A DNA stretch of 64,000 bases. It comes from a virus. Both the position numbers and the translations under genes were made by a program. The notes beneath the pieces are model-generated. The model was not told where the DNA came from, ran no database searches, and saw only the letters and a program-made list of their open reading frames with translations. Below, in pieces: positions 1 through 41,583 of this stretch; the stretch's first letter is position 1; each line of letters starts with the position of its first letter. Location of the stretch: the IMG/VR virus record IMGVR_UViG_3300035696_000012, positions 1 through 64,000 of that record. One strand, 5' to 3'.

Positions 1-34
1 GACTGTTGCCGTTCGAGTGAGATTGTGGAGAGCA

Positions 35-127
35 TTACATTCCCCGTTGGACGAGATAGATGACAAGGAATACCCATCCAACACATGCCAATACATGTGG
101 GATGATGCGTACGATCTTGGAATACAT
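35..127 (-). CDS. 30-aa hydrophobic peptide (MYSKIVRIIPHVLACVGWVFLVIYLVQRGM)
   Basis: Translated by hand (below ORF-track cutoff); AAGGA 5' of ATG; its TAA overlaps the next ATG (TAATG), whose ORF runs off the window. Confidence 0.5.
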   Translation of the reverse strand: MYSKIVRIIPHVLACVGWVFLVIYLVQRGM

Positions 128-150
128 TGTGATCCTTTCGGGCAATAATG

Positions 151-210
151 ACTGAATTACCCAACATCACGCACATGTAAGAGCATGTGCGCAATAGCAG
201 ATACGTCAGT
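151..210 (-). repeat. Inter-gene stem-loop element, copy 1
   Basis: Minus strand ACTGA..TCTGCTA-TTGCGCACATG-CTCTTA-CATGTGCGTGA-TGTTGG..TCAGT; lies between stop at 215 and RBS/ATG at 127. Confidence 0.8.
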
Positions 211-214
211 TTAC

Positions 215-343
215 TTATCCAATCAACCCACGCCAACGCAATGCAGCACGCATATCCGTACCGAAGAATCGTTTGGCTACAGTGTCGGCAAAGGCATCCA
301 GTTCCTTTTTCCACGGGTCGGTGCCAAGTGCGATGTCTGCCAT
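215..343 (-). CDS. 42-aa hypothetical protein (MADIALGTDPWKKELDAF...)
   Basis: Hand translation; ATG overlaps stop of upstream gene (TAATG). Confidence 0.6.
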   Translation of the reverse strand: MADIALGTDPWKKELDAFADTVAKRFFGTDMRAALRWRGLIG

Positions 344-558
344 TACTGGCACGGCGTTTCCACAATCGAGAACGGTGTCCTACACTCCGAACAAGTGTAG
401 CGTTCCAACCGAGGTGTGTTCATGTAGGTGTCGTTCACCTTGTCGGCAAGGTCTCGCAAGGTGTCCCGAAGTCGGAGAAGGTCTCCCGTGTAGTCATTGG
501 TAGAGCAATCGTCGTCAATGTAGGCTGCGACGAGAGCACGTAGAACTTTGAAGTCCAT
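343..558 (-). CDS. Hypothetical protein with C-terminal CxxC
   Basis: GAGG RBS; follows hairpin copy 2. Confidence 0.7.
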   Translation of the reverse strand: MDFKVLRALVAAYIDDDCSTNDYTGDLLRLRDTLRDLADKVNDTYMNTPRLERYTCSECRTPFSIVETPCQ

Positions 559-580
559 TGTCTTACCTCATAATATGGTG

Positions 581-644
581 AGCTGAATTGCCCAACAATG
601 TCCTACACATACGTATGCATAGGACATTAGCAGACTCGCCAGCT
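581..644 (-). repeat. Inter-gene stem-loop element, copy 2
   Basis: AGCTG..TCTGCTA-ATGTCCTA-14 nt loop-TAGGACAT-TGTTGG..CAGCT; 62/63 identical to copy 3. Confidence 0.9.
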
Positions 645-653
645 AACGCTTAC

Positions 654-971
654 TTACACCGTCTCCCAGCGCACATCCTTGACCCTCTGTTGTAGGAGGA
701 TATCGCCCATGTACGCCTTTTCGTCCTTGCTCCAGTCGGTCAATTGTAGGAGACGTGGGAGAGCTTTGCGCGCTTGTGCGAGCTTTGGATACGGCTTATC
801 CAAACGCCTACCTGACATGACATGTGTGATGGCATACCCCGGCTCATTGAACGCGCGGGTTATGATGAGATGTCGCATCTTGGAGTATCGTGTGGTCTTT
901 TCCCACACACGTTCCCCGCTGTTGGATATCTCGTTAGTGATCACGGTAAAGATGAGAGGTCGTCGTTTCAT
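654..971 (-). CDS. Hypothetical protein (start re-assigned to MKRRPLIF, 105 aa)
   Basis: GGGG RBS-like element before ATG at 971; the longer ORF-track N-terminus runs through hairpin copy 3. Confidence 0.7.
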   Translation of the reverse strand: MKRRPLIFTVITNEISNSGERVWEKTTRYSKMRHLIITRAFNEPGYAITHVMSGRRLDKPYPKLAQARKALPRLLQLTDWSKDEKAYMGDILLQQRVKDVRWETV

Positions 972-988
972 TGTTTCCCCGTCTTTTT

Positions 989-1051
989 GCTGAATTGTCC
1001 AACAATGTCCTACACATACGTATGCATAGGACATTAGCAGACTCGCCAGCT
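989..1051 (-). repeat. Inter-gene stem-loop element, copy 3
   Basis: Near-exact copy of 582-644. Confidence 0.9.
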
Positions 1052-1053
1052 TG

Positions 1054-1167
1054 TCAGATACTAACGGTAAAGGTGTGTTTCGTGGGATGAGTGGCAGCCG
1101 TGTATCCCATGTGGTACATCTCGTACCCAAAGAACCCAAGAACACACACGATGATGATGTACTTCAT
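1054..1167 (-). CDS. 37-aa peptide with N-terminal hydrophobic segment (MKYIIIVCVLGFFGY...)
   Basis: GAGG RBS before ATG at 1167. Confidence 0.55.
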   Translation of the reverse strand: MKYIIIVCVLGFFGYEMYHMGYTAATHPTKHTFTVSI

Positions 1168-1234
1168 TGTCGTATACCTCCTCACAACCCCACATGCTTG
1201 AATACACATGGGGATGTATGTAGGATGCGACCGT

Positions 1235-1402
1235 TTACTTGCTTTCCTCGTCAAGCTCTTTTCCGCACTTGTCGCAGATCTCTCCCGATCCGTCCGACCA
1301 TGAACGATTCCCCTCCGCCTTGCCACCGCATTCCGTACATGTAAGTACGATGGGGCGGGGGTTCTCACCTTGTCGGAATGCCAGCCAGCCTTCGTATGAC
1401 AT
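1235..1402 (-). CDS. 55-aa zinc-ribbon protein (CTEC...CDKC)
   Basis: AGGAGG RBS, two CxxC pairs. Confidence 0.75.
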   Translation of the reverse strand: MSYEGWLAFRQGENPRPIVLTCTECGGKAEGNRSWSDGSGEICDKCGKELDEESK

Positions 1403-1417
1403 TGTATCCTCCTGTAT

Positions 1418-1475
1418 GAAAAACTCCAACAATATCCCATACCTATGACAGTGTGGGATATTAGCAGAGCCGTTC
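1418..1475 (-). repeat. Inter-gene stem-loop element, copy 4
   Basis: GAACGGC-TCTGCTA-ATATCCCA-14 nt loop-TGGGATAT-TGTTGG-AGTTTTTC; stems differ from other copies but still pair. Confidence 0.85.
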
Positions 1476-1487
1476 CTACTTGTGTGC

Positions 1488-2033
1488 TTAGAGCGTGACG
1501 GGGATGGTAATGTGCGACACGCTCTTCTGTTTCGCGATTGACCGACCGTCGATCTTAAACCCCATATCATGTAGTTTCTTGACCATGATCGTGGGGTTCG
1601 ACGTTTCCAAGATGCCTTGCAGATCGTTCACTGCAACTTTGATGCTCGAATCGAACGCGCCCATGCGAGCCTTCAAGCTCGCAGAAAGACCGTCGTACTC
1701 CTCCTTTTCCTTACGAAGTGCGCTCGTGTAGGTTTCGAGCGCCTTGTCAAGCGCCTCTCGCACCTTTCGGTCCGCTTCCGTCTTGGCTCGACGCTGAACC
1801 GTTGCCAGAGCGTTGATTGCCCGCACACATACGGTGCCGATCTCATCCGTTGAAAGATGTTCGAACGACGGGTTAACGTTCTCGCCTTTCCCGGCATCCC
1901 ACACAATGCCGTGCATGGTACGCAGGCATGCGAGAAGGGTGGCGATATTCTCACCGTTCAGCACCTTCGGTGCCTTCGTGGTCTCTTGTGCGACGGTAGC
2001 GGCAGTGGCGACAATTGCGGTTTCGGTGGTCAT
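1488..2033 (-). CDS. Hypothetical protein, 181 aa, coiled-coil-like middle (start MTTETAIV)
   Basis: AGGAG RBS before ATG at 2033. Confidence 0.8.
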   Translation of the reverse strand: MTTETAIVATAATVAQETTKAPKVLNGENIATLLACLRTMHGIVWDAGKGENVNPSFEHLSTDEIGTVCVRAINALATVQRRAKTEADRKVREALDKALETYTSALRKEKEEYDGLSASLKARMGAFDSSIKVAVNDLQGILETSNPTIMVKKLHDMGFKIDGRSIAKQKSVSHITIPVTL

Positions 2034-2065
2034 GTGATTGTATCTCCTATGTGTTGACAGTTTTG

Positions 2066-2129
2066 AGCTTATTGCCCGACAATGCAAGCAAGCTAACTAC
2101 GCTTGCTCACATTAGCAGACATTCAAGCC
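2066..2129 (-). repeat. Inter-gene stem-loop element, copy 5
   Basis: GGCTT..TCTGCTA-ATGTGAGCAAGC-GTAGTTA-GCTTGCTTGCAT-TGTCGG..AAGCT; two G-U pairs in upper stem. Confidence 0.85.
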
Positions 2130-2335
2130 TACCAAGCGCTACTATAATCTAGTCGCTTAGCAATATCCTTGCCGTTGATTGCCTTGGCTCGCTTGCCGCT
2201 AAGCCTACGCGCACACTTGCTACTCATGCCCACCTTGTGAGTCATGTTATAGCGTGTGTCCCGAATCTGCTTACTTGTAAGCCCCTTGCAGCGCTCGCAA
2301 AGGCAATTGTTCGATTGTAGTATGAGGCACTTCAT
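2129..2335 (-). CDS. Basic Cys-containing hypothetical protein (start MKCLILQ)
   Basis: AGGA RBS; ATGA overlap with upstream ORF. Confidence 0.6.
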   Translation of the reverse strand: MKCLILQSNNCLCERCKGLTSKQIRDTRYNMTHKVGMSSKCARRLSGKRAKAINGKDIAKRLDYSSAW

Positions 2336-2463
2336 TGTCCTACCTTGTGCAGCCATCGGCTACTTGTAAACGTATGCCGTTGTTTCTTACCCGGGCGAAC
2401 ACTTCCCTTCCAATGTGCTACGTGTGCTCGTTTGAAGGGGGAACGTTTCTTTTTTGCCATCAT
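2332..2463 (-). CDS. 43-aa very basic peptide (MMAKKKRSPFKRAH...)
   Basis: Hand translation; stop overlaps next start (ATGA). Confidence 0.5.
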   Translation of the reverse strand: MMAKKKRSPFKRAHVAHWKGSVRPGKKQRHTFTSSRWLHKVGQ

Positions 2464-2477
2464 ATACCCTACTCTCG

Positions 2478-2630
2478 TCAGTGTGCGCTTAACGCACATA
2501 CCGCCCTAAACTTGTTAGGGACGGTTTCGAGCTTGCCGACGTTATTAGCGTCTAGCCGGTATAGGCTACTTGTGATAGCCGTATGGTATTGTATAGGTTG
2601 TAATACTATCTGTTTTCTTTGCACTCGCAT
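2478..2630 (-). CDS. 50-aa hypothetical peptide (MRVQRKQIVLQ...)
   Basis: Hand translation; fits the minus-strand run; weak RBS. Confidence 0.4.
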   Translation of the reverse strand: MRVQRKQIVLQPIQYHTAITSSLYRLDANNVGKLETVPNKFRAVCALSAH

Positions 2631-2880
2631 CTAGCGTTTCTTACTTCCCTATCTTGTCGCGCTTTATCCTACAATCCCACTTTCCACCGTCAGAGCCACA
2701 ATGTAGTCTAGTTGCTTCCCTTGGGAATACAACGACACCACTATGACATAGGTGGGGGTCATGTAAGACAATCGCTGAACCGTAGAATTAACCTTCTAGG
2801 TGCGATATGTCGTATCGTTAGAGTAGAGACTGGCTGCTAGGTACACTTCCGTTCTAGCGACTTTGCCTCACCTATCTTAC

Positions 2881-2937
2881 CTACACCGACTATCCCTTAC
2901 AAGGGAAGGATCCAAGGATCCTTGGTCGGCAGTGTAG
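2881..2937. ncRNA. Candidate branched RNA/ssDNA structure in non-coding region
   Basis: CTACAC/GTGTAG and CCGAC/GTCGG close two inner hairpins (TCCCT/AGGGA, AGGATC/GATCCT). Confidence 0.3.
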
Positions 2938-3057
2938 CGGGATGAAGCTTTCTAGGTGCTTTCCACCTATCGCCCTGCTAGTAACGGGTATTCCGTTGCA
3001 TGCTCTGCTTACCGGGTAGCGCTGCATTGAAAGCGACGGCAAGCTTCTAACGCCGGT

Positions 3058-3083
3058 GTAGGGGACAGTGCCCTACGTTTTTC
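3058..3083 (+). terminator. Possible intrinsic terminator
   Basis: GTAGGG-7 nt-CCCTAC followed by GTTTTTCT. Confidence 0.3.
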
Positions 3084-3135
3084 TGTTCGGCGCGCTGTCT
3101 TTCGCGCCTGCTATCAAGAGAGAACGGCAGGGGTC

Positions 3136-3170
3136 AAAAAACCTTTAGACCCTCGCGAGGCTTTTTTTTT
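3136..3170. terminator. Possible bidirectional terminator-like element
   Basis: A6-CCT..CCTCGCGAGG-C-T9; short stem. Confidence 0.3.
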
Positions 3171-3206
3171 GCCTCTTACCGTTTCACTCTCGACGATTAG
3201 GTGTAT

Positions 3207-3223
3207 TGCATGACCGATGCCAA
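3207..3223 (-). promoter_or_regulatory. sigma54-like -24/-12 element facing the small-gene run
   Basis: TTGGCATCGGTCATGCA keeps GG-N10-GC spacing. Confidence 0.35.
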
Positions 3224-3236
3224 GGTTAGGGATCGG

Positions 3237-3347
3237 CTAAGTGCCTGATATCATTAGGGAACGGTAGGGGTGCCGATGGCATGGCTTGCAGACTACGCAG
3301 GTTTTTTCATACTGCAATGTGTGTCTCGAATGATATCAACGGGTTAG
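3237..3347. repeat. Inverted pair of CTAA-N5-TGATATCATT (3237-3255 and 3329-3347)
   Basis: 14 identical positions with the same spacer length in opposite orientation. Confidence 0.6.
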
Positions 3348-3667
3348 GTACTAACGGCGAATTGCGGGGTTCGCAACTAATTGCGTAGTGTCATATATGG
3401 CGGGCTAAAAGCCGCTAGGGCAACGTTTAGAGTGCCGGGGTACCTCGGACAAGAGAACGGAAAGCAACGGGGCTTAGCAGGGCGCCTAGCGCCAGCGCTC
3501 GACCACTGCGAAGGGTGCGGCGCCGCTCGACCACGGGAGACGACCGCCAGGCAGCAGGGATGTAGTAGCCGGTAGGGAGCTCCGTCAGGATGTGGGAGCT
3601 TTGTGCCCGGTGTGGGGTAATGTAGGTGGTATGAGTTTTGCATTAGAAAGAATCATGCCAAGCCCGT

Positions 3668-3683
3668 TGGCGCGGTTCTTGCA
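3668..3683 (+). promoter_or_regulatory. sigma54-like promoter
   Basis: TGGCGCGGTTCTTGCA vs consensus TGGCACG-N4-TTGCW (one mismatch). Confidence 0.45.
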
Positions 3684-3855
3684 ATACAGTTCATGTGATC
3701 GTTTATCACACCTGATACACTGCTTATACTACTTGCTGCCCGCCACATCAGCTAACAATGTAGGACGTATCAGGCGAGCAGTGAAGTAAGGAATACGTGT
3801 TGTATGTAATGGAAGGTAGGATACCAGTGGATGATGTAGGCAATGCCGATGGGAG

Positions 3856-3873
3856 ACGTTTCACGTGAAACGT
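3856..3873. promoter_or_regulatory. parS-like palindrome
   Basis: Perfect 18-bp palindrome ACGTTTCACGTGAAACGT containing the chromosomal parS core GTTTCACGTGAAAC. Confidence 0.7.
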
Positions 3874-4413
3874 TATAGCTGGCATGATCATTGATCGTGC
3901 CAAGTAGGGTGATGTAGGAGATGTCGCCGTCTCAACACCATTGGATTACCTGAACAGGATGTAGGGCGGTAGGGGGAAAGGTAAGCGACGGTGGGGAGGA
4001 ATTACAGTAGGACGGTTGGCACGGTTCTTGGGGGTTGTCGGGAAAGGTGGGCAACGGTAGGATGAATTGGGGGCTAACGGTATCAGGGGAAAGGTGGGAT
4101 GATGTAGGATGTTCAGGTGGTATAATGTAGGGGAGACGGGGAGAACGCAGGGCGTATAGCCGGAGTAGCGGGTTGGAAGACAATGTATGATATGTAGTGA
4201 AAAGAAAGGAAAGATGATGTAATGTAGAATGATGTAATAATTGTAAAGAAGTAGAATGAAATAGAGGGAAAGGTGGGATACGGTGGGAGGATCGGAGTGG
4301 AAGTGGGGCGGTGTCGCGCGAGGTGTGGTGGTGTGAGGAAATGTGGGCTTGGTTAAACAACGAAACGGTACCAAAAACGGTAGCTATTACTTATAACAGC
4401 AAAAACAACAATC

Positions 4414-4683
4414 CTACCCTAATACCAACAATCCTTCTATATCAACCTTATACTCAACAAAATTGGTCTCTAACAGCTCCTCTGCTGCTTCCCCATATAA
4501 ATCACTATGGTCTAATAGGTATTCAATCATTGCAATCTTGAATTCTTTTACATTATTCATCGCAATAAATCCTGACAACTCATATAACATATTGTCCTGA
4601 ATGAATGCATACTTTTCATCCTCATTCATTGGATAGAACCTATACAATGGTATACCTGCTAAATCTATATCTTTATCTATCAT
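4414..4683 (-). CDS. Hypothetical protein, ends ..VEYKVDIEGLLVLG
   Basis: GGAG RBS; variant of shared C-terminal motif. Confidence 0.75.
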   Translation of the reverse strand: MIDKDIDLAGIPLYRFYPMNEDEKYAFIQDNMLYELSGFIAMNNVKEFKIAMIEYLLDHSDLYGEAAEELLETNFVEYKVDIEGLLVLG

Positions 4684-33145: not shown

Positions 33146-35275
33146 ATGTCACAAGGCACCGCAGTAACTGTCAATAATATCAACCTAGTCTCTCTAAGTG
33201 GCGACATCACTGGATCCACTATCGACGGCTATGTTTCTTCTATTAGCGGTACTTCTCCAGTAATTATTACCCCTAACTCTTTGCAATGGGTTAGTTCAGT
33301 CACTTCTCCTACTTTGACCCAAGCTTCTTCGGCTAATCAAGGTCAAACTTTAACTATCCAGGCGCAGGGAACCGGTGGTTCCAGTACAGGTGGTAATTTA
33401 ATTCTAGCTTCCGGAAGTTCTTTATCAGGTTCCGCTGGTAACATTATTTTTCAATTGGGCGCTACCACTGGACTTACACTTTTGCCCTCTGGAACTTTAC
33501 AGTTTCCAGCTACGGCTACAGCTACTATTAACCAGGCTGCTTCAACTGGCTCCGGTGCTAATTTAAGCATCACCGCTCAATCTGCCGGTAGCGTTGGTGA
33601 CAACGGTGGTTCTTTGATCCTTACTTCAGGAGCCTCTACCACAACTGGAACTTCTGGCAATGTTACCATAAATACAGGAACTCCTGGTGCTGGCGGTACC
33701 GCAGGGAATATTCAATTCCAAGTCAGCGGCACTACACAAGCTTTCGTTAATAGCTCTGGTCTTGGTATCGGATCTACCCCTGGTACATCACCAACTATTT
33801 CTTCTGGTTCTGGTGTCCCATCATCTACTCAACCAACAGGTTCTATTTATCTCAATACAAACGGTAGTAGTAATACAGGCATTTATACTCGTTATAGTAA
33901 TATTTGGAGTTCTTCTGTTGCATATACTGGTTTGACAGCCCCAGTATCATTTACAACCAATACCAATACTAGCTCGCCTTATGTAGTTGACGTAACTGTT
34001 GGAAATGACGCAGTAATTCTACATAGTCACTCCGGCGCTCCAACGACTTATGTAATGCCAGCTCCCACTGTTGGAAGACAAGTTATTATTCGAGATATCA
34101 CTGGAACTATTGAAACAACAAATCAGACTGGTGGTTATATTACTGGAACCGCTTCTACCAGCAACGTTATATTCGTAGCTCCACACGCTGCTGAATCGTT
34201 CAATACCAGTTCTGGATATTCATTAACTGGTACGGTTACTAATTCCGCCTCTACTACCGTAACTGGTAGCAGCACTTTATTTACAAAAGAATTAGCTCCC
34301 GGTATGAGTATTACTTTCAGTAATCAATCGGGCGTCTCTTACATCGTATCATCTATAACTAATGACACTTCTTTAACTCTTACTACTGCTTTTACTGGAA
34401 CAGGTAGTTCGGGTAATACTGCTAAAATGAATAGTTTAGCCTATTATGCTAATTGGGGTACTCTTACTTTATTTAGTGATGGTACAAACTGGTTTGCTTC
34501 CAGTAATAAACCTCTTCGTGTTTATCTGACTGCTAATGGTACTTTTATCCCTTCTCCTGGTTGTACTGCAGCTTATTTAGTTGGATGTGGCGGTGGCGGT
34601 GGCGGTGGCGGTGGAACTACCAATCAAGCTGGTGGTGGCGGAGGTGGCGCAACTCAATCTACTATGACGGTTAATCTTACACCTAATATTTCTGGTGGTT
34701 ATGTTGTTACTATTGGTGCTGGTGGCACAGCCGGTAGTACTGGTGCTGCTGGTGGAGCCGGCGGTACTACTTCTTTTGGTACTACTTCCATTGCTAATTT
34801 TTATGGAGCTTCTGGCGGAGGAGCCGGTAGCACTGCTAATCAATATGCCGCAGGAGGATTATCATTTAATACAGGTATTAGTGGTAATTTGAATATTTAT
34901 TCTTCCAGTAACTCCACAGGCAATGGAACTGCAGCAATTGGATCCGGCACTACCATTACCAGTGCTAATATAACTGGCTCTACTGCTATGGGTGGATATG
35001 GTGGTAATAGCGGCGGTAGTTCAGGTGGCACAGGAATGACTAATATAAGCGCAACTTTAACTAGTTATACTGGTGGTACTGGTGGCACCGGTACGAATGG
35101 TTCTGGCGGTGGTGGTGCAGGTCCTCAAGGCAACGGTGCAACAGGTACGACTAATGGTAATCCCGGAAATACACCAAATGCTAACAGTGGTGCCGGTGGC
35201 AGTGGAGGCGGAGGCGGTGCCACTACTGGTGGAGCGGGTGGAAGCGGATATCTCTATGTATATACTTGGATGTAA
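33146..35275 (+). CDS. Tail fibre / receptor-binding paralogue 1, Gly-rich C-terminal domain
   Basis: Colinear with three downstream genes; ends GGAGGSGYLYV. Confidence 0.8.
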   Translation: MSQGTAVTVNNINLVSLSGDITGSTIDGYVSSISGTSPVIITPNSLQWVSSVTSPTLTQASSANQGQTLTIQAQGTGGSSTGGNLILASGSSLSGSAGNIIFQLGATTGLTLLPSGTLQFPATATATINQAASTGSGANLSITAQSAGSVGDNGGSLILTSGASTTTGTSGNVTINTGTPGAGGTAGNIQFQVSGTTQAFVNSSGLGIGSTPGTSPTISSGSGVPSSTQPTGSIYLNTNGSSNTGIYTRYSNIWSSSVAYTGLTAPVSFTTNTNTSSPYVVDVTVGNDAVILHSHSGAPTTYVMPAPTVGRQVIIRDITGTIETTNQTGGYITGTASTSNVIFVAPHAAESFNTSSGYSLTGTVTNSASTTVTGSSTLFTKELAPGMSITFSNQSGVSYIVSSITNDTSLTLTTAFTGTGSSGNTAKMNSLAYYANWGTLTLFSDGTNWFASSNKPLRVYLTANGTFIPSPGCTAAYLVGCGGGGGGGGGTTNQAGGGGGGATQSTMTVNLTPNISGGYVVTIGAGGTAGSTGAAGGAGGTTSFGTTSIANFYGASGGGAGSTANQYAAGGLSFNTGISGNLNIYSSSNSTGNGTAAIGSGTTITSANITGSTAMGGYGGNSGGSSGGTGMTNISATLTSYTGGTGGTGTNGSGGGGAGPQGNGATGTTNGNPGNTPNANSGAGGSGGGGGATTGGAGGSGYLYVYTWM

Positions 35276-35286
35276 AGGTCAAATAA

Positions 35287-37428
35287 ATGGCTCAAAGTAA
35301 CATAATTTTATACGGTGATGTAATTGGTAATAGCAGTAGTAATACTGTTTATTCTATTACTGGTATTTCAGCCACCTCGACCATACCAGTCAATCCAGCT
35401 ACCCTACAATGGTTGAGCACCGTTGCTTCTCCTACATTAAGTCAATTTACTAATGCTTACGTAGCAGGACAAAATCTTACTATTCAAGCACAAGGAAGTA
35501 CTTTTAATTCTGCTAATGGTGGTAATTTAGTTTTAGCTTCTGGTACTACTTCTTCTGGGACAGTTGGTAATATTCAATTACAACTTGGTAATACTACTGG
35601 TCTAACTCTTTTAGCTACTGGAACTTTACAATTTGGAACGGCAATTACTGCTGGTGGTATTAGTCAAGCATCTTCTTCTGGAACCGCTACTAATCTAAAT
35701 ATCACTGCCCAGTCTGCTGGAGGTTCCGCTAATAATGGTGGTGCGTTAATTTTAACTTCCGGAGCCTCTACTACGACTGGCACTTCCGGTAACGTTACTT
35801 TCAATGCTGCTACACCTGGCACAAGCGGTACTACTGGAAATATTCTCTTCCAAATAAGCGGTACCACTCAGGCTTTCGTGACTGGATTATCATCAAGTAC
35901 TGGTTTAGGCATCGGATCTACTCCTGGCACCTCTCCTACCGTTACCTCTGGATCTGGTACACCATCTACCACTCAAACCAGTGGATCTATTTACCTAAAT
36001 ACTAGTACCACTAATACGGGTCTGTATACTCGACAAAATAGTGCCTGGTCCCAATTGATTTCATCAAGTGTTAGTACATTGACAGCGCCCGTTACCGAAG
36101 CAATTTCTACTAATACCTCTCATAGTATTTATACTGTCGATAGCACTACTGGAAGTTATGATGGAGTTATTCTTCATAATCGTTCTGGATTTACCACTTA
36201 CGTGATGCCAGCCCCTACAGCTGGACGACAAATTATTATTCGAGATATCACAGGAAGTATTGAAACTACAGCCACCAATGGAACTAATGCTAATACCGGT
36301 TTTATTACTGGAACTGGCACTAATAGCAACACCATTTTTATAGCTCCTCACGGCACCGAATCATTTAATACCAGCTCCGGTTTTGTTTTGAGTGGAGTTG
36401 GCACTTTCAATGTTACCAACGGTTCTGCCACTGTAACAGCAACCGGATCTTCGTTCACTACTCAATTAGCTCCCGGAATGAGTATCACGTTCAATGCTCA
36501 ACTAGGTATTTCTTACACGATTTTAAGTATAGCTTCAAATACTTCTCTAACTTTAGCAACTAATTATACTGGTACTACTACCACTATTTCTAGTGCTACT
36601 ATGAATAGTCTAGCTTATTATGCTAATTACGGTACTCTCACTCTAATTAGTGATGGTACAAATTGGTTTGCTTCCAGTAATAAACCTCTTCGTGCTTATC
36701 TAACCGGTAGTACGGGAAGCTTTTTTGTTTCTCCGGGTATTACCAATGCTTTCATAACTGCCGCTGGTGGTGGAGGTGGCGGAGGAGGAGGAACTTCTAC
36801 CGGTAGTGGAGGCGGTGGAGGAGGTGGAGCAATTCAATCTACTACTAATATTTCTGTAACTCCAAATACTACTTACGGTGTAACTATTGGTGCTGGTGGA
36901 ACAGCTGGTAGTACTGGTGCTGCTGGTGGAACTGGTGGCATAACTTCTTTTAGCTCTTTAGCTTATTTCTATGGTGCTTCTGGCGGTGGATTTAATTCGA
37001 CAGGAGCAACTTATGCCTGTGGTGGATATCCATTTACTAGCAATGGTTCTACCAACGTATATTCTTCTGTGGCATACGCAGGTACTGGAGCAATTTCTAG
37101 TGCTAATCCTACTAACATTACTTCTAGCAGTTTATTTGGACAATTATCTATGGGAGGTTCCGGAGCTTACAGCAGCGCAACATCTTTTGCAGGTTTAGAA
37201 AATACTACCGGTAATGGCTCTTATATTGGTGGTGCAGCCGGTGGTACTTCTGGTGGTGGTGGCGGTGGCGCTGGACCTCAAGGAACAGGAGCAGCTGGCG
37301 GTGCTTCTGGAGTAGGTGGATCATCTGCTGGCAATAATACAGGTGCAGGTGGTGGAGGCGGAGGCGTGGGCTCAACTTCTGGTGGAACTGGTGGAAGCGG
37401 ATATCTATATCTATTAATGTATATGTAA
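35287..37428 (+). CDS. Tail fibre / receptor-binding paralogue 2
   Basis: Same architecture; ends GGTGGSGYLYL. Confidence 0.8.
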   Translation: MAQSNIILYGDVIGNSSSNTVYSITGISATSTIPVNPATLQWLSTVASPTLSQFTNAYVAGQNLTIQAQGSTFNSANGGNLVLASGTTSSGTVGNIQLQLGNTTGLTLLATGTLQFGTAITAGGISQASSSGTATNLNITAQSAGGSANNGGALILTSGASTTTGTSGNVTFNAATPGTSGTTGNILFQISGTTQAFVTGLSSSTGLGIGSTPGTSPTVTSGSGTPSTTQTSGSIYLNTSTTNTGLYTRQNSAWSQLISSSVSTLTAPVTEAISTNTSHSIYTVDSTTGSYDGVILHNRSGFTTYVMPAPTAGRQIIIRDITGSIETTATNGTNANTGFITGTGTNSNTIFIAPHGTESFNTSSGFVLSGVGTFNVTNGSATVTATGSSFTTQLAPGMSITFNAQLGISYTILSIASNTSLTLATNYTGTTTTISSATMNSLAYYANYGTLTLISDGTNWFASSNKPLRAYLTGSTGSFFVSPGITNAFITAAGGGGGGGGGTSTGSGGGGGGGAIQSTTNISVTPNTTYGVTIGAGGTAGSTGAAGGTGGITSFSSLAYFYGASGGGFNSTGATYACGGYPFTSNGSTNVYSSVAYAGTGAISSANPTNITSSSLFGQLSMGGSGAYSSATSFAGLENTTGNGSYIGGAAGGTSGGGGGGAGPQGTGAAGGASGVGGSSAGNNTGAGGGGGGVGSTSGGTGGSGYLYLLMYM

Positions 37429-37443
37429 ATGAGGAATGAGTAA

Positions 37444-39552
37444 ATGAATATAAATGGTATTATGGTAGCTGGTGATATTGCTGGAAGTAGCGATTCTAAC
37501 GTCGTTGTTTCTATCAGTGGATCTTCTCCGATCAATATAACTCCCAATACTTTACAATGGGCTACTAGCACCGTTTTTCCTGTTCTTAGCCAAACATCTT
37601 CAGCTACCGCTGCTGGACAAGCTCTAACTATTCAAGCACAGGGTAGCACAGGCTCTAGCACTAATGGCGGTAATTTAGTTTTATCTTCCGGAACTTCCAT
37701 CTCTGGAACTGCTGGTAATATTCAATTACAATCTGGCACTACCACCAATTTAACCTTAATTTCTACCGGATCTTTGCAATTTGGATCTACCGTTTCTTCA
37801 CCAACTATTACTCAAGCGGCAGCTTCAGCTGCCGGCGGCAATTTAAGTATTACTGCTCAATCTGCCGGTGGAACTACTAACAATGGAGGATCATTAGTTT
37901 TAACTTCTGGATCTTCTTCTACTACTGGCACTTCTGGCAACATTACCATTAATACTGCTACTCCAGGTGGATCTAATCCCGGTAATATTCTTTTCCAAAT
38001 TAGTGGCACTACTCAAGCTTTCGTTACCACTAATACCAACGGAACTGGATTAGGCATCGGATCTACTCCAGGTACATCACCAACTATTACTTCTGGATCT
38101 GGAGCACCTTCGTCAACTGAACCAAATGGCTCTGTTTATCTGAATACTAATTTATCAGCAACTGGTTCTATAGTTTATACTCGTCAGAATGGATCGTGGT
38201 TTTCCCTACCTCCAACTGGTAGCCAAATCATACCATTAACTGAAACTATTAATACCAATACTGGAACGGCTGGTACTCAATCAGTTTATACTGTAGACTC
38301 CACCAATGGTTCTGACGGAATTATTCTTCATAATCATACTGGAGCTCCTACTACATACATTATGCCAGCTCCTACAGCAGGTCGTCAAATTATTATTCGA
38401 GATATAACTGGCAATATTGAAACTACTAATCAAACGGCTGGTTTAATCACTGGCTCTGGAACTACCAGTAATGTTATTTTTATAGCACCACACACTACTG
38501 AGTCCTTCAATGGAAGTTTCGGATATTCTTTGACAGGTTCCGCTTACCATTTTACTAGCGGTTCTGCCGTGGTGACAGCCAGTAGTTCCCTGTTTACCAC
38601 TGAATTAGCCCCTGGTATGAGTATTGTACCAGTTGGTGGTACTGCAACCACAACGGCTTCTTATATTATTGCTTCTATTCAATCCTCTACTCAATTCACA
38701 CTCACTGCTAATTACACCGGTACTACCAGTACTACAAGTACCGCTAAAATGAACAGCTTAGCCTATTATGCTAATTACGGTACCCTTACATTAATTAGTA
38801 ATGGTACAAACTGGTTTGCTTCCAGCAATAAACCACTTCGTGCATATTTTACTTCCACTATTACCAATGGTGTGTTTATCCCTTCTCCCGGTTGTACTAG
38901 TGCAACTCTGATTGGGTGTGGCGGTGGAGGTGGCGGTGGAGTAGAAAGTGGTACTGAAACTGGTGCAGGCGGTGGAGGAGCATTACAATCTGTAGTAAAT
39001 GTAAGTCTTACTCCTAATCTTACTGGCGGTTACGCTGTTGCTATTGGTGCCGGTGGGAACGCAGGTTCAAGTGGTGTTGGTGCAGTTGGAGGCAACACTG
39101 CACTAGGAACTATAGCTTATTTTTACGGAGCTTCTGGTGGAGGAGCAACCGCTGGCGCCGGGTTAAGTTCTGGCGGATATCCAATTACTAATAACGGAGT
39201 TAATATTTACAGTGATGCTGTTACTGGAGCTGGCGTTGCATCTATCGCTGTATCTACCACTATTACATCAACTAATTTACCAGGTATGATTGCGATGGGA
39301 GCATCTTCTGTTCTTGGAGCTAGTACATCTGGATTTATCAATATTATGGGTAACGGATCTTATACCGGTGGTACTACTACCAATGGCGGCGGTGGTGGAG
39401 CAGGACCACAAGGCAGCGGTGGAAACGGTGCTAACGCTGGTACAGCTGGCTCAGGCGCTGCTAATACTGGAGCTGGTGGCGGTGGAACTTATGGTACTGG
39501 TACAGCAGGTGCTGGTGGCTCGGGTTATCTATATGTCATTCTTCCAATGTAA
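37444..39552 (+). CDS. Tail fibre / receptor-binding paralogue 3
   Basis: Same architecture; ends GAGGSGYLYV. Confidence 0.8.
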   Translation: MNINGIMVAGDIAGSSDSNVVVSISGSSPINITPNTLQWATSTVFPVLSQTSSATAAGQALTIQAQGSTGSSTNGGNLVLSSGTSISGTAGNIQLQSGTTTNLTLISTGSLQFGSTVSSPTITQAAASAAGGNLSITAQSAGGTTNNGGSLVLTSGSSSTTGTSGNITINTATPGGSNPGNILFQISGTTQAFVTTNTNGTGLGIGSTPGTSPTITSGSGAPSSTEPNGSVYLNTNLSATGSIVYTRQNGSWFSLPPTGSQIIPLTETINTNTGTAGTQSVYTVDSTNGSDGIILHNHTGAPTTYIMPAPTAGRQIIIRDITGNIETTNQTAGLITGSGTTSNVIFIAPHTTESFNGSFGYSLTGSAYHFTSGSAVVTASSSLFTTELAPGMSIVPVGGTATTTASYIIASIQSSTQFTLTANYTGTTSTTSTAKMNSLAYYANYGTLTLISNGTNWFASSNKPLRAYFTSTITNGVFIPSPGCTSATLIGCGGGGGGGVESGTETGAGGGGALQSVVNVSLTPNLTGGYAVAIGAGGNAGSSGVGAVGGNTALGTIAYFYGASGGGATAGAGLSSGGYPITNNGVNIYSDAVTGAGVASIAVSTTITSTNLPGMIAMGASSVLGASTSGFINIMGNGSYTGGTTTNGGGGGAGPQGSGGNGANAGTAGSGAANTGAGGGGTYGTGTAGAGGSGYLYVILPM

Positions 39553-39561
39553 GGTTCAATA

Positions 39562-41583
39562 ATGACTTTAACGATTAATTTAAATGGTGATGTGGCAGGA
39601 ACTAATAATGGTAATGTGGTTGTTGCTATTAACGGATCTTCTCCACTTCCTATTGCTCCAGCTATATTACAGTGGATTAGTTCAATTACTTCTCCAACTC
39701 TAACTCAAACATCTAATACTTTTTCTGGTGCGACCGGTCAAGCCCTTACCATTATGGCGCAAAGTACAACTGGTACAGGCACAACTATTGGCGGTAATCT
39801 TAACTTAAATTCTGGCACAGGAGCTACCGGCGGAACTATTAATGTAATTGCTGGAGCCGGAACCACGGCTGGTGGTACTTTAAATTTAGCAGCTGGTACG
39901 GCTTCCACTGCGGCTGGTACAGGTGATGTTAATATTCAAGGTGGCTCTCCTAGTTCTCTAGTTAATATAGTCACTTTCAATGCCACCGATTTTGACAATG
40001 ATGGTTTGGTGGAAACAATGGGAATTGGTTCTTCCATGACCTCTCCTCGTATTTATCAAATAACAGGTAGCGGTGCTGGCACTAACCTAACTATTCAAGC
40101 TCAAAATGCTGCTGGCAGCAACAATAATGGCGGAAGCCTTCTTCTTAAAGGAGGTACCGCTACTGGAACTGGCACTACTGGTGGTATTATTCCTTCTGTG
40201 CAGGTACGAACAAACTCTTCCAATACCACTTATACTATTGATAGTACTGGTGGTGGTAGTGATTACCATATTTTGCATAATAACTTTAGTGGTTATGTTT
40301 CCTACGTATTACCAACACCAACTGCCGGACGAGAATTATTGATCAGAGATATTACTGGGGCAATCAATACAACTGGTTACAACGTTTTCATCGTGCCTCA
40401 TGCTGCCGAAGCAATTAACACTTCTTACGGTTATTATATAGGACCCAGTAGCACTACAAATACTACTTTTAGCATTACTAAAGGAAGCACTTCTGTCACC
40501 GCCGGAGCTTCTTTAGCCGGTATTTTAACGGCTGGTATGAGTATTTTCTTCAACAGTGATCTTAAGAGCTATATTGTTTCCGCTTTCAATGGCACTACCG
40601 GAATTACTCTAGCTTCTGCCTATACTGGTACCACTAGTTCTACCGCTACTGGTACCATTAGCAGTTTGACTTTCGCTGCTAACTATGGAGTATTGCGATT
40701 AGTCAGTGATGGAACTAATTGGTATGCTAAGGGCGATGGTACTTTAACTACCGTTACTTTTACTTCTAGCGGTACTTGGATTCCTCCACAGGGAGTAACA
40801 TCTGCTACTGTCACCGGTTATGGTGGAGGAGGTGGAGGAGGCGGTGGAGCAGGCAATGCTACTAATGCTGGAGGTGGTGGTGGAGGCGGCGGTGCAATTC
40901 AATCTACCGTTACAGTTACTGTAACACCGTCCTTTGGATATGTTGTTACTATTGGTGCTGGTGGAACCGGAGCTACTGCTGTTACCAATGCTGCTGGTAA
41001 CGTTGGTGGATCAGGTGGCAATACGACATTAGGTGGTATTTTAGCCTTATTTTCTGGTGCTTCTGGTGGCGGTAGCGGCTGTACAACAGCCAACTCTACT
41101 GCTAATACCGCCGGTGGTTTATGTAACAAGACTAACTCTATCGTAGGAAATACTCAAGGAAATCTTTACTCTGTTGCCGTTAGTGCTGGCGTAGGATTAA
41201 CTAGCAACGGTGTTAACGTATTTGTTGCTACGCCTGCTGGTGGTGGTTTTTCCGGTGCATTTCTTGCTGGTTCTGCAGGTGGATATAATCTGGTTACTAA
41301 CAATAATATAGCTGACACTGTTTATGCTCCTGGTTCAGGAGGTGCAGTAGCCGGTTCTGGTACCGCAGCTGGAGGTGGTGGCGGAGGCGGACAGGGTCCT
41401 GGTGGCAACGGTGGTAATGGTGGAGCTGGAGTAGCCACTGGTACTGCTAATGCTGGTAGTTCAGCTGCAGCTAATACCGGAGCTGGTGGTGGCGGCGGAG
41501 GTGGTCTTGGAGCTACAAGCCCAGCCGCTGGTGCAGGTGGTAATGGTGGATCAGGCTGGATGCAAATTGTGTATTCTCTATAA
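39562..41583 (+). CDS. Tail fibre / receptor-binding paralogue 4 (most diverged)
   Basis: Same architecture; ends GNGGSGWMQI. Confidence 0.8.
   Translation: MTLTINLNGDVAGTNNGNVVVAINGSSPLPIAPAILQWISSITSPTLTQTSNTFSGATGQALTIMAQSTTGTGTTIGGNLNLNSGTGATGGTINVIAGAGTTAGGTLNLAAGTASTAAGTGDVNIQGGSPSSLVNIVTFNATDFDNDGLVETMGIGSSMTSPRIYQITGSGAGTNLTIQAQNAAGSNNNGGSLLLKGGTATGTGTTGGIIPSVQVRTNSSNTTYTIDSTGGGSDYHILHNNFSGYVSYVLPTPTAGRELLIRDITGAINTTGYNVFIVPHAAEAINTSYGYYIGPSSTTNTTFSITKGSTSVTAGASLAGILTAGMSIFFNSDLKSYIVSAFNGTTGITLASAYTGTTSSTATGTISSLTFAANYGVLRLVSDGTNWYAKGDGTLTTVTFTSSGTWIPPQGVTSATVTGYGGGGGGGGGAGNATNAGGGGGGGGAIQSTVTVTVTPSFGYVVTIGAGGTGATAVTNAAGNVGGSGGNTTLGGILALFSGASGGGSGCTTANSTANTAGGLCNKTNSIVGNTQGNLYSVAVSAGVGLTSNGVNVFVATPAGGGFSGAFLAGSAGGYNLVTNNNIADTVYAPGSGGAVAGSGTAAGGGGGGGQGPGGNGGNGGAGVATGTANAGSSAAANTGAGGGGGGGLGATSPAAGAGGNGGSGWMQIVYSL

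What the first reader, a model, noticed from the sequence alone, without database searches (positions are those of the whole stretch)
151..2129. Five covarying stem-loops punctuate a run of small orphan genes: candidate mRNA-processing or cassette signal
Seen: five elements (151-210, 581-644, 989-1051, 1418-1475, 2066-2129) on the coding (minus) strand. Each starts within about 12 nt of a stop codon and ends just before the next RBS. All keep a central 5'-UCUGCUA-3' / 5'-UGU(U/C)GG-3' core that forms G-U pairs and one C-U mismatch. The upper stem (8-12 bp) and lower stem differ completely between copies yet always pair, e.g. AUGUCCUA/UAGGACAU, AUAUCCCA/UGGGAUAU, AUGUGAGCAAGC/GCUUGCUUGCAU. The imperfect pairs are G-U on the mRNA strand and would be A-C mismatches on the other, so the selected structure is strand-specific. 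Known: T7 and SPO1/SP82 early regions carry RNase III hairpins between genes. Inference: this is an analogous processing/stabilising code for an early polycistronic transcript, with a sequence-specific core that may be read by host RNase III or by an unknown phage protein.
Basis: partly seen in the sequence, partly recalled or inferred. Interest (0 to 1): 0.85.

Follow-up and report, generated by a model that had tools for sequence, protein, structure and literature searches.

The report
RNA hairpins punctuating jumbo-phage small genes
A roughly 400-kb uncultured peat phage separates a run of small unknown genes with long RNA hairpins that share a fixed wobble-paired box, most likely cut-and-stabilise signals like the RNase III sites of phages T7 and SP82: a new sequence family of a familiar design.

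Summary
Five hairpins with the box UCUGCUA…UGUYGG lie on the minus strand at the stated places, against 0.06 expected by chance. SL2 and SL3 are near-identical copies, so the window holds four independent versions.

A covariance model finds 25 distinct members in six related peat-phage contigs. All are on the coding strand, in a GC-rich arm of a low-GC jumbo phage. Pairing is kept by compensatory change: 96% of cells are paired, 12 of 18 pairs show double changes, and 0 of 500 shuffles do as well.

Of all pairs, 23% are G·U, against almost no A×C mismatches. Sense folds average −29 kcal/mol and antisense folds −17. So the selected structure is RNA of mRNA sense.

Each element fills the gap between a stop codon and the next Shine-Dalgarno sequence. 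The elements carry no promoter and no U-tract. The 95%-complete relative shows no recombinase, RNase III or RNA polymerase gene.

The best reading (about 0.55) is intercistronic processing and stabilising sites, probably for host RNase III. Cleavage is untested. This scan has met the same design in other phages.

Gene modules differ between relatives at these hairpins.

In passing: the roughly 750-nt non-coding block just upstream looks like a large structured RNA with no Rfam match.

The parts
151..210 (-). SL1: hairpin with the UCUGCUA/UGUUGG box, between the 42-aa gene (218-343) and the 30-aa membrane peptide gene (38-127)
   Evidence: (62.4 bits)
581..644 (-). SL2: hairpin with the box, after the 105-aa gene. 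It is 62/63 identical to SL3.
   Evidence: (74.9 bits)
989..1050 (-). SL3: hairpin with the box, before the 105-aa gene. It is the twin of SL2, so this gene is bracketed by direct repeats.
   Evidence: (80.8 bits)
1414..1479 (-). SL4: hairpin with the box, directly after the conserved 181-aa gene. The 3' strand of its lower stem is a U-run that pairs with GGAAC.
   Evidence: 66.1 bits
2066..2129 (-). SL5: hairpin with the box (UGUCGG variant), directly before the 181-aa gene. Orthologous copies in four relatives have fully compensated, different upper stems.
   Evidence: 62.9 bits
1183..1218 (-). Sixth intercistronic hairpin, of another sequence class (no UCUGCUA box), between the 55-aa zinc-ribbon gene and the 37-aa membrane peptide gene
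   Evidence: conserved in L129 and L137
1..2463 (-). Co-directional run of ten small genes with strong Shine-Dalgarno sites: 43, 68, 181, 55, 37, 105, 71, 42 and 30 aa, plus one cut by the contig end. None matches a Pfam or PHROG family significantly. Only one weak sigma-70-like match lies on this strand, inside a gene, and there is no terminator-like site.
2501..3260 (-). Conserved non-coding block immediately upstream. It is a candidate large structured RNA and a possible 5' part of the same transcription unit.

Best explanation
The five elements belong to a family of about 65-nt RNA hairpins that fill the intercistronic gaps of a long, co-directional run of small genes. The run lies in the GC-rich arm of an uncultured jumbo phage of about 400 kb.

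Shown: the hairpin forms in the mRNA-sense strand and is under selection as a structure. It has a lower stem, a small internal loop, an 11-bp box of fixed sequence and a freely covarying 13-15-bp upper stem. The box reads U.G/U-A, C-G, U.G, G.U/G-C, CxU mismatch, U.G, A-U, A-U, U-A.

Inferred: the hairpins are processing and stabilising punctuation of a polycistronic message. A double-strand-specific endonuclease, most likely the host's RNase III, would cut in or beside the conserved box, which lies about one helical turn or slightly more below the loop.

By analogy with T7 and SP82, a cut on the 3' side would have two effects. The upstream message would end in a protective hairpin. The downstream message would start a few nucleotides before its Shine-Dalgarno sequence, which in three members is partly buried in the lower stem.

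The fixed box would set how and where the enzyme cuts. As a side effect, the shared sequence gives recombination a foothold, which would explain why gene modules differ between relatives at these points.
For: - Non-random occurrence: 5 copies against 0.06 expected.
- Stable sense-strand folds, z -3.9 to -5.5, with the antisense much weaker. Over 25 members the mean is -29.2 against -17.4 kcal/mol.
- Covariance model R1 finds 25 distinct members in six contigs. All are on the coding strand, at 46-82 bits against 27 bits or less for the antisense. There are none elsewhere in the 133-kb own record, and the strong matches in the 406-kb relative all lie in its GC-rich arm.
- Covariation on the MAFFT-only alignment A2: 93.7% of cells paired, 12 of 18 pairs with double changes, 0 of 500 shuffles reach this, and slid controls give 36-50%. 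On the 25 distinct rows: 95.9% paired.
- Strand test: 151 G.U pairs among 648 pairs, against 5 AxC mismatches.
- Total helix is 23-30 bp, which is RNase III substrate size. The upper stem is 11-15 bp from the mismatch to the loop. SD+ATG lies 18-47 nt after the box.
- No sigma-70-like promoter and no hairpin-plus-U-tract at any element.
- No tyrosine recombinase, RNase III, T7-like RNAP or RNAP beta gene in the 95%-complete relative, so host enzymes must act.
- Same design rule in known systems. T7 R0.3/R0.5/R1/R1.1/R1.3 share CUCAAGGUC...GGCCUUUAUGAU around variable apices. SPO1 host-takeover intergenic elements share GGUUGCUAG plus a covarying hairpin plus AUGGAGCC.
- From the literature: T7 substrates with an internal bubble, and SP82 substrates, are cut once, on the downstream side (PMC1935012). 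[quoted passage not shown]
- Most other intercistronic gaps of the arm hold hairpins of the same three-tier build without this exact box: 13 of 18 in G001 and 13 of 20 in L127. This argues for a general dsRNA-based role.
Against: - No RNA data of any kind: cleavage, RNA ends, timing and polycistronic transcription are all untested.
- The host is unknown, so its RNase III and that enzyme's specificity are unknown.
- E. coli RNase III needs no positive sequence signal. Two U.G wobble pairs and the CxU mismatch are invariant or nearly so in 25 members. That is more than dsRNA alone would demand, and it could point to a sequence-specific reader other than RNase III.
- The box may also be conserved merely because copies spread by duplication or recombination. 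SL2 = SL3, and several members are close paralogues.
- The internal loop is small and symmetric, unlike the asymmetric bubble of T7 sites.
Confidence: 0.55

Rival explanations
1. The fixed box (tandem U.G pairs around a C-G pair, plus a CxU mismatch) is a sequence-specific binding or cutting site. Its reader would be a dedicated protein of the phage or host other than RNase III, such as a translational operator protein or a hairpin-specific endonuclease that coordinates expression of the small genes.
For: U19.G60 and U22.G57 are wobble pairs in 25 of 25 members. C18-G61 and A23-U56 are invariant. The CxU mismatch is kept in 24 of 25. Neighbouring pairs covary freely. Wobble pairs that never drift to Watson-Crick pairs are typical recognition features (general knowledge). 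Related hairpin classes in the arm keep a UCU/GGG sub-motif.
Against: No candidate reader was found. All neighbouring proteins are orphans. The one conserved neighbour (181 aa) folds as a helical protein with no nuclease or RNA-binding match. Equivalent gaps are filled by hairpins lacking the box. One diverged relative replaces the box by plain Watson-Crick pairs (G001 copy at oriented 18458).
Confidence: 0.15
2. The hairpins are passive. They act as barriers to 3'-5' or 5'-3' exonucleases and as insulators between cistrons, and no endonuclease cuts them.
For: The hairpins are very stable (-23 to -38 kcal/mol) and sit directly after stop codons. Several sequence classes occupy the same position.
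Against: A passive barrier does not explain a fixed 11-bp box with a preserved mismatch. Hairpins of 23-30 bp are normally substrates of RNase III wherever it is present (general knowledge).
Confidence: 0.15
3. The elements act on DNA as recombination sites for gene cassettes, either integron attC-like folded single strands or T4 PeSL-like homology patches. The RNA fold would be incidental.
For: One gene is bracketed by 62/63-identical copies. Against G001, the window has two extra modules bounded by hairpins. L150 is 100% identical to the window up to 13 nt past SL1 and then unrelated. In the source samples three junction forms coexist at 127-132. Ends of homology blocks fall at hairpins about twice as often as expected, 47 of 169 (weak). 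TGTTGGGC fits the attC R' box GTTRRRY in part of the copies.
Against: No tyrosine recombinase in G000, in G001 (95% complete) or in G002. There is no RYYYAAC partner box. The box pairs through three G.U wobbles and a mismatch, which would be poor as DNA. The 151:5 excess of wobble over AxC mismatches shows selection on an RNA-type fold. No promoter follows the stem-loop, so the PeSL definition fails (PMC4122927). The mapped polymorphic junction lies just after the hairpin, not in it.
Confidence: 0.07
4. The elements are transcription terminators or attenuators between genes.
For: They are stable hairpins after stop codons. SL4-type copies end in UUUUUC.
Against: The consensus scan calls none of the five a terminator. 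The U-run of SL4 is itself paired as the lower stem, and the other members have no U-tract. Five terminators in 2.1 kb with no promoter between them would silence the downstream genes.
Confidence: 0.04

Closest known systems
RNase III processing signals of the phage T7 early region (R0.3, R0.5, R1, R1.1, R1.3)
   Same: Both are intercistronic hairpins that fill the gap between a stop codon and the next ribosome-binding site of a polycistronic run of small genes. Both have an upper stem, an internal irregularity and a lower stem. In both, a sequence core is shared by all copies while the apex and lower stem vary. I re-folded the T7 sites here.
   Different: There is no sequence similarity. The hairpins here are longer, with 13-15 bp upper stems against 9-10. 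They are almost fully paired, with a 1x1 CxU mismatch and a small symmetric loop in place of T7's asymmetric bubble. They are unusually rich in G.U pairs (23%). Cleavage is proven for T7 and untested here. The phage here is a jumbo phage of about 400 kb with no RNA polymerase gene detected.
B. subtilis RNase III sites of phage SP82 early mRNA (Panganiban & Whiteley 1983; Mitra & Bechhofer 1994, as cited in PMC4838370 and PMC1935012) and the intergenic repeats of the SPO1 host-takeover module
   Same: Both are conserved sequence blocks plus a covarying hairpin between small host-takeover-type genes. In SPO1 I found five copies of GGUUGCUAG, a variable 10-bp stem and AUGGAGCC. SP82 sites have internal loops and are cut once, on the downstream side (PMC1935012). 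Strong Shine-Dalgarno sites are present, as in Firmicute phages.
   Different: The SPO1 element has two adjacent short hairpins rather than one long one. The only shared letters are UGCUA, which may be chance. That the SPO1 repeats are the counterparts of the mapped SP82 sites rests on my memory, not on a test here.
PeSL elements (promoter-early stem-loops) of T4-like phages (PMC2839356, PMC4122927)
   Same: Both are repeated intergenic motifs in regions of small orphan genes, and both are associated with indels and gene replacement between close relatives.
   Different: A PeSL is a short stem-loop followed by a sigma-70-like promoter, an SD and a start codon. Here no promoter is present and there is no room for one. 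The conserved part here is inside the helix.
Integron attC sites
   Same: Both are imperfect hairpins with conserved boxes and a variable centre, placed at the 3' end of each small gene. Both have a strand-specific fold.
   Different: There is no integrase in the genome and no R''/R' box pair. Pairing depends on G.U wobbles. There are no extrahelical bases.
Intercistronic hairpin families reported earlier in this scan in other phages (for example e1-5405386, Streptomyces jumbo phage; e1-5324298; e1-125737)
   Same: The design and the reading are the same: conserved-core RNA hairpins punctuating runs of small phage genes, sometimes with a preserved mismatch.
   Different: The sequence families and hosts are unrelated. 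None of those notes was checked here.

Membership tests
Bacterial RNase III mRNA processing signal (T7/SP82 type) | Hairpin with about two helical turns (20 bp or more) of double-stranded RNA | tested here: met
   23-30 pairs per element in 25 members
Bacterial RNase III mRNA processing signal (T7/SP82 type) | Located between cistrons of one co-directional transcription unit, after a stop codon and before the next ribosome-binding site | tested here: met
   Position confirmed for all five elements. No promoter-like or terminator-like site at any of them. That this is a single transcript is itself inferred.
Bacterial RNase III mRNA processing signal (T7/SP82 type) | Structure selected on the mRNA-sense strand | tested here: met
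   Covariation. 151 G.U pairs against 5 AxC mismatches. Sense 46-82 bits against antisense 27 bits or less.
Bacterial RNase III mRNA processing signal (T7/SP82 type) | Internal loop that directs a single cut on the 3' side | tested here: inconclusive
   A 2x2 to 3x3 symmetric loop and a 1x1 CxU mismatch are present. These are not the asymmetric bubble of T7 sites.
Bacterial RNase III mRNA processing signal (T7/SP82 type) | Cleavage by RNase III in vivo or in vitro | not testable with these tools
   No RNA run holds the sequence and the host is unknown. The phage itself encodes no RNase III.
PeSL (promoter-early stem-loop) of T4-like phages | Sigma-70-like promoter between the stem-loop and the SD/start of the next gene | tested here: not met
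   No promoter-like site at any element. Only 18-47 nt lie between the box and the ATG. Definition taken from PMC4122927.
PeSL (promoter-early stem-loop) of T4-like phages | Association with indels or replacements between close relatives | tested here: met
   The statistical enrichment is only about two-fold.
Integron attC site | Complementary R'' (RYYYAAC) and R' (GTTRRRY) boxes | tested here: not met
   GTTRRRY fits part of the 3' boxes. No RYYYAAC is present on the 5' side (alignment A2).
Integron attC site | Cognate tyrosine recombinase in the element or genome | tested here: not met
   No PF00589 match in G000, G001 (95% complete) or G002. The control genomes all gave a match.
Intrinsic (Rho-independent) terminator | GC-rich hairpin followed by an unpaired U-tract | tested here: not met
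   The scan calls none of the elements a terminator. The only U-run (SL4 type) is paired.
Any Rfam 15 family | Match to a curated covariance model | tested here: not met
   No match at gathering score in the whole window. No match at E<=1 in 1-4600.

The most novel reading that the evidence does not exclude
The invariant wobble-and-mismatch box is read by a dedicated, still unidentified protein rather than by generic RNase III. This would define a phage-specific mRNA punctuation code. The same elements would serve as exchange points at which gene-plus-hairpin cassettes are swapped between co-circulating jumbo phages. The hairpin-punctuated operon, together with the large structured RNA just upstream of it, would form one unusual GC-rich expression unit inside a low-GC genome.
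Probability: 0.2. Interest if true: 0.65.

Novelty: new member of a known kind. Interest (0 to 1): 0.4.

Why it matters
Conserved-core hairpins between small phage genes have been known since T7 and SP82, so the design is not surprising.

What is new is a well-supported RNA family that is absent from Rfam: 25 members with strong covariation. It occurs in an uncultured group of peat jumbo phages in which no RNA polymerase or RNase III gene was detected.

The invariant tandem wobble pairs and the preserved mismatch give a precise, cheap test of what a bacterial RNase III, or another reader, recognises.

The coexisting junction variants next to the hairpins show modular gene exchange in a natural population.

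The compositionally distinct arm and the large structured RNA candidate next to it may be the more rewarding leads.

Tried and rejected
- **Chimeric assembly.** I suspected the 50%-GC first 4.4 kb was an assembly chimera or a T7-like fragment. I rejected this because the same junction between the low-GC and GC-rich parts is present in G001, L128, L129, L137 and L152.
- **Nucleotide search of cultured phages.** Near and distant modes gave no match. A DnaB protein search gave at most 25% identity to any cultured phage.
- **First loose pattern scan of viral contigs.** A tighter pattern plus the model kept only G001 and L137.
- **Pfam and PHROGs on the nine small proteins.** Nothing significant apart from a zinc-ribbon hint in the 55-aa protein.
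- **Fold of the conserved 181-aa neighbour.** pLDDT 76, helical. Foldseek against PDB found no match at E<=0.001. So there is no evidence that it reads the hairpins.
- **Phage-encoded RNase III, T7-like RNAP, RNAP beta and tyrosine recombinase.** None found in G000 or G001. The T7-like RNAP model did not ring in any control genome either, so that blank is weak.
- **RNA sequencing runs.** No RNA holder is listed. Only two peat DNA runs hold the stretch, and they may be the source of this DNA. Expression could therefore not be examined.
- **20-mer from the upstream non-coding block.** It hit one cyanobacterial genome, but the hit lies inside a protein-coding gene, and about one chance hit is expected.
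- **Protein P0002.** It has no contig on record.
- **Breakpoint enrichment test.** 47 of 169 block ends fall at hairpins, against roughly 12% expected. The test is confounded by non-independent pairs and by gene divergence, so I treat it as weak.
Full report
**1. Where the window lies**

The window is the first 64 kb of a 133-kb IMG/VR virus record, estimated 31% complete.
- Bases 1-4400 have about 50% G+C. The rest has 26-43%.
- I first suspected a chimeric contig. That is wrong.
- The 181-aa protein encoded at 1491-2033 (minus strand) has seven homologues. One lies on a 406,470-bp virus record that is 95% complete (G001).
- G001 shows the same switch. Its first 48.6 kb have 43-49% G+C and the remainder about 30%.
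- The junction, including the low-GC gene beside it, is also present in independent assemblies L128, L129, L137 and L152.
- The two public runs that hold the stretch are labelled peat metagenomes.
- No cultured phage is close.
- Genes in the low-GC part include tail fibres, ribonucleotide reductase, helicases and an endolysin.
- So the finding sits at the start of a GC-rich arm of a low-GC jumbo phage. Genes in this arm run away from the junction.

**2. The observation**

- The pattern TCTGCTA-N20-50-TGTYGG occurs five times, all on the minus strand, against 0.06 expected.
- Each copy folds into a single three-tier hairpin of -27 to -33 kcal/mol (z -3.9 to -5.5). The opposite strand folds 8-17 kcal/mol less well.
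- The elements begin 0-10 nt after a stop codon and end shortly before a strong Shine-Dalgarno sequence and ATG.
- Every intercistronic gap of the ten-gene run holds a long hairpin. The sixth, at 1183-1218, belongs to another sequence class.
- The genes are orphans.
- SL2 and SL3 are 62/63 identical, so the window alone offers four independent versions.

**3. The family**

- Relatives supply many more copies.
- A covariance model built from 18 copies (A2, R1) finds 25 distinct members in the window, G001, L127, L129, L130 and L137, plus duplicates from sister samples.
- All members lie on the coding strand, at 46-82 bits. Antisense scores are 27 bits or less.
- No member lies outside the GC-rich arm in the 133-kb and 406-kb records.
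- On the MAFFT-only alignment, 93.7% of cells pair and 12 of 18 pairs show double changes. No shuffle out of 500 reaches the observed values, and slid controls give 36-50%. The 25 distinct rows give 95.9%.
- Orthologous copies upstream of the 181-aa gene in four phages have entirely different but fully compensated upper stems.
- The box is fixed. C18-G61, U19.G60, U22.G57 and A23-U56 never vary. The C21xU58 mismatch is closed to C-G only in one G001 copy.
- Over all members there are 151 wobble pairs among 648 pairs, and only 5 AxC mismatches.
- Mean energy is -29.2 kcal/mol for the sense strand and -17.4 for the antisense.
- The selected object is therefore an RNA of mRNA sense.
- Rfam has nothing like it.

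**4. What it is not**

- Not a terminator or promoter. No sigma-70-like promoter and no hairpin-plus-U-tract coincides with any element.
- Not a PeSL. The distance from box to ATG is 18-47 nt, which leaves no room for the promoter that defines PeSL elements.
- Not an attC-like site.
 - no tyrosine recombinase in G000, G001 or G002, with all control genomes positive;
 - no RYYYAAC box;
 - a box that pairs mostly through wobbles, which is poor as DNA.
- No phage-encoded enzyme is evident. RNase III, T7-like RNA polymerase and RNAP beta gave no hit in G000 or G001. The T7-like RNAP model rang in no control genome, so that one blank is weak. Host enzymes should therefore transcribe and process this arm.

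**5. What it most likely is**

The placement, size (23-30 bp), strand-specific selection and the rule of a conserved core with variable stems match two classical cases.
- **T7.** I re-folded the five T7 early RNase III sites. They share CUCAAGGUC...GGCCUUUAUGAU around variable apices.
- **SPO1/SP82.** The SPO1 host-takeover module carries five intergenic copies of GGUUGCUAG, a covarying 10-bp stem and AUGGAGCC. SP82, a close relative, provided the mapped B. subtilis RNase III sites. Those citations come from PMC4838370 and PMC1935012. That the SPO1 and SP82 elements are equivalent rests on my memory.
- **Literature.** T7 substrates with a bubble, and SP82 substrates, are cut once on the downstream side (PMC1935012). 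B. subtilis RNase III is narrow in specificity (PMC4838370). A narrow-specificity enzyme would explain a strictly conserved box.

I therefore read the elements as cut-and-stabilise punctuation of a polycistronic message, with the cut predicted in or beside the box. This is inference. Nothing here shows cleavage, timing or the extent of the transcript.

Most other intercistronic gaps of the arm hold hairpins of the same build but other sequence: 13 of 18 in G001 and 13 of 20 in L127. Some carry a related UCUACU/GGUGGGGA motif, and one has a fully Watson-Crick version.
- This favours a general double-strand-RNA role.
- It also shows that the exact box is not indispensable.

**6. The cassette aspect**

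- Gene content between conserved anchors differs among relatives. The differing modules end at hairpins.
- Relative to G001, the window has an extra block running from SL4 to SL3, and an extra block of two genes plus SL1.
- One gene is bracketed by the twin SL2 and SL3.
- Contig L150 is 100% identical to window 132-4446 and then unrelated. The break lies 13 nt after SL1, between the Shine-Dalgarno sequence and the ATG.
- In the contigs of the two peat runs, three junction forms coexist at 127-132, with depths of about 5, 6 and 10.
- A crude count puts 47 of 169 homology-block ends at hairpins, against about 12% expected.
- I take this as recombination exploiting repeated sequence at gene borders, not as the primary function.

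**7. Seen in passing**

- The block directly upstream (window about 2501-3260, minus strand) has no conserved ORF and no codon periodicity. It is more conserved than the neighbouring genes.
- Over six relatives its consensus fold scores -166 kcal/mol, against -100 +/- 8 for column-shuffled alignments. 39 of 180 pairs have double compensatory changes, against a mean of 9 in shuffles.
- Rfam gives no match even at E<=1. The strand is not settled.
- This looks like a large structured RNA of about 700 nt or more with no Rfam match, and it deserves its own study.

**8. Verdict**

- The design is familiar, and this scan has found it repeatedly in other phages.
- The sequence family and its setting are new.

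Noticed in passing
window 2501-3260 (minus strand), possibly extending to about 3400: A conserved non-coding block directly upstream of the hairpin-punctuated genes. It is more conserved than the flanking genes, with no ORF and no codon periodicity. Its consensus fold has z -8.2 against column shuffles, and 39 of 180 pairs show compensatory double changes. It has GNRA-type loops and no Rfam match even at E<=1. It is a candidate for an undescribed large structured RNA of about 700 nt or more. The strand and the ends are not settled.
   Followed up: partly
window 1-4400 versus 4400-64000; G001 1-48,600 versus the rest: The genome is compositionally two-part. An arm of 43-51% G+C is joined to a body of about 30% G+C. 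The junction is the same in at least five independent assemblies, so this is not a chimera. The cause is unknown. In G001 the arm also carries three TnpB/IS605-OrfB-like genes, an Eco57I-type methylase and a ResIII helicase.
   Followed up: partly
window 3600-4400 (minus strand): A C-rich, G-poor non-coding zone, with GC skew up to +0.71 on the plus strand. It holds 7 of the window's 12 CCTACAT motifs. It is 74-80% conserved in G001 and L130. Possible roles are a rut-like leader, an origin or a packaging region; none was tested.
   Followed up: no
window 127-132; L150 1-1160: Three junction forms coexist in the same peat samples between the Shine-Dalgarno sequence after SL1 and the ATG of the next gene, with contig depths of about 5, 6 and 10. 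This is a natural rearrangement polymorphism at a gene border.
   Followed up: partly
G001 (L125/L126), L127 and L129: intercistronic gaps of the GC-rich arm: Several further sequence classes of long (21-33 bp), sense-biased, three-tier hairpins. One example, in G001, is a pair sharing GUUUCCGU.UCUAUGACAAUA.... Others carry the UCUACU/GGUGGGGA motif.
   Followed up: partly
window 33146-41583 (plus strand): Four tandem ORFs of 673-713 aa in a patch of about 43% G+C inside the low-GC body. The first matches tail-fibre and tail-fibre-assembly PHROGs. They look like a paralogous receptor-binding array.
   Followed up: no
L153 (phage SPO1) 7112-7185 and 11780-12778: Five intergenic copies of a conserved element in the SPO1 host-takeover module: GGUUGCUAG, a covarying 10-bp hairpin and an AUGGAGCC hairpin. 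None is annotated in the RefSeq record.
   Followed up: partly
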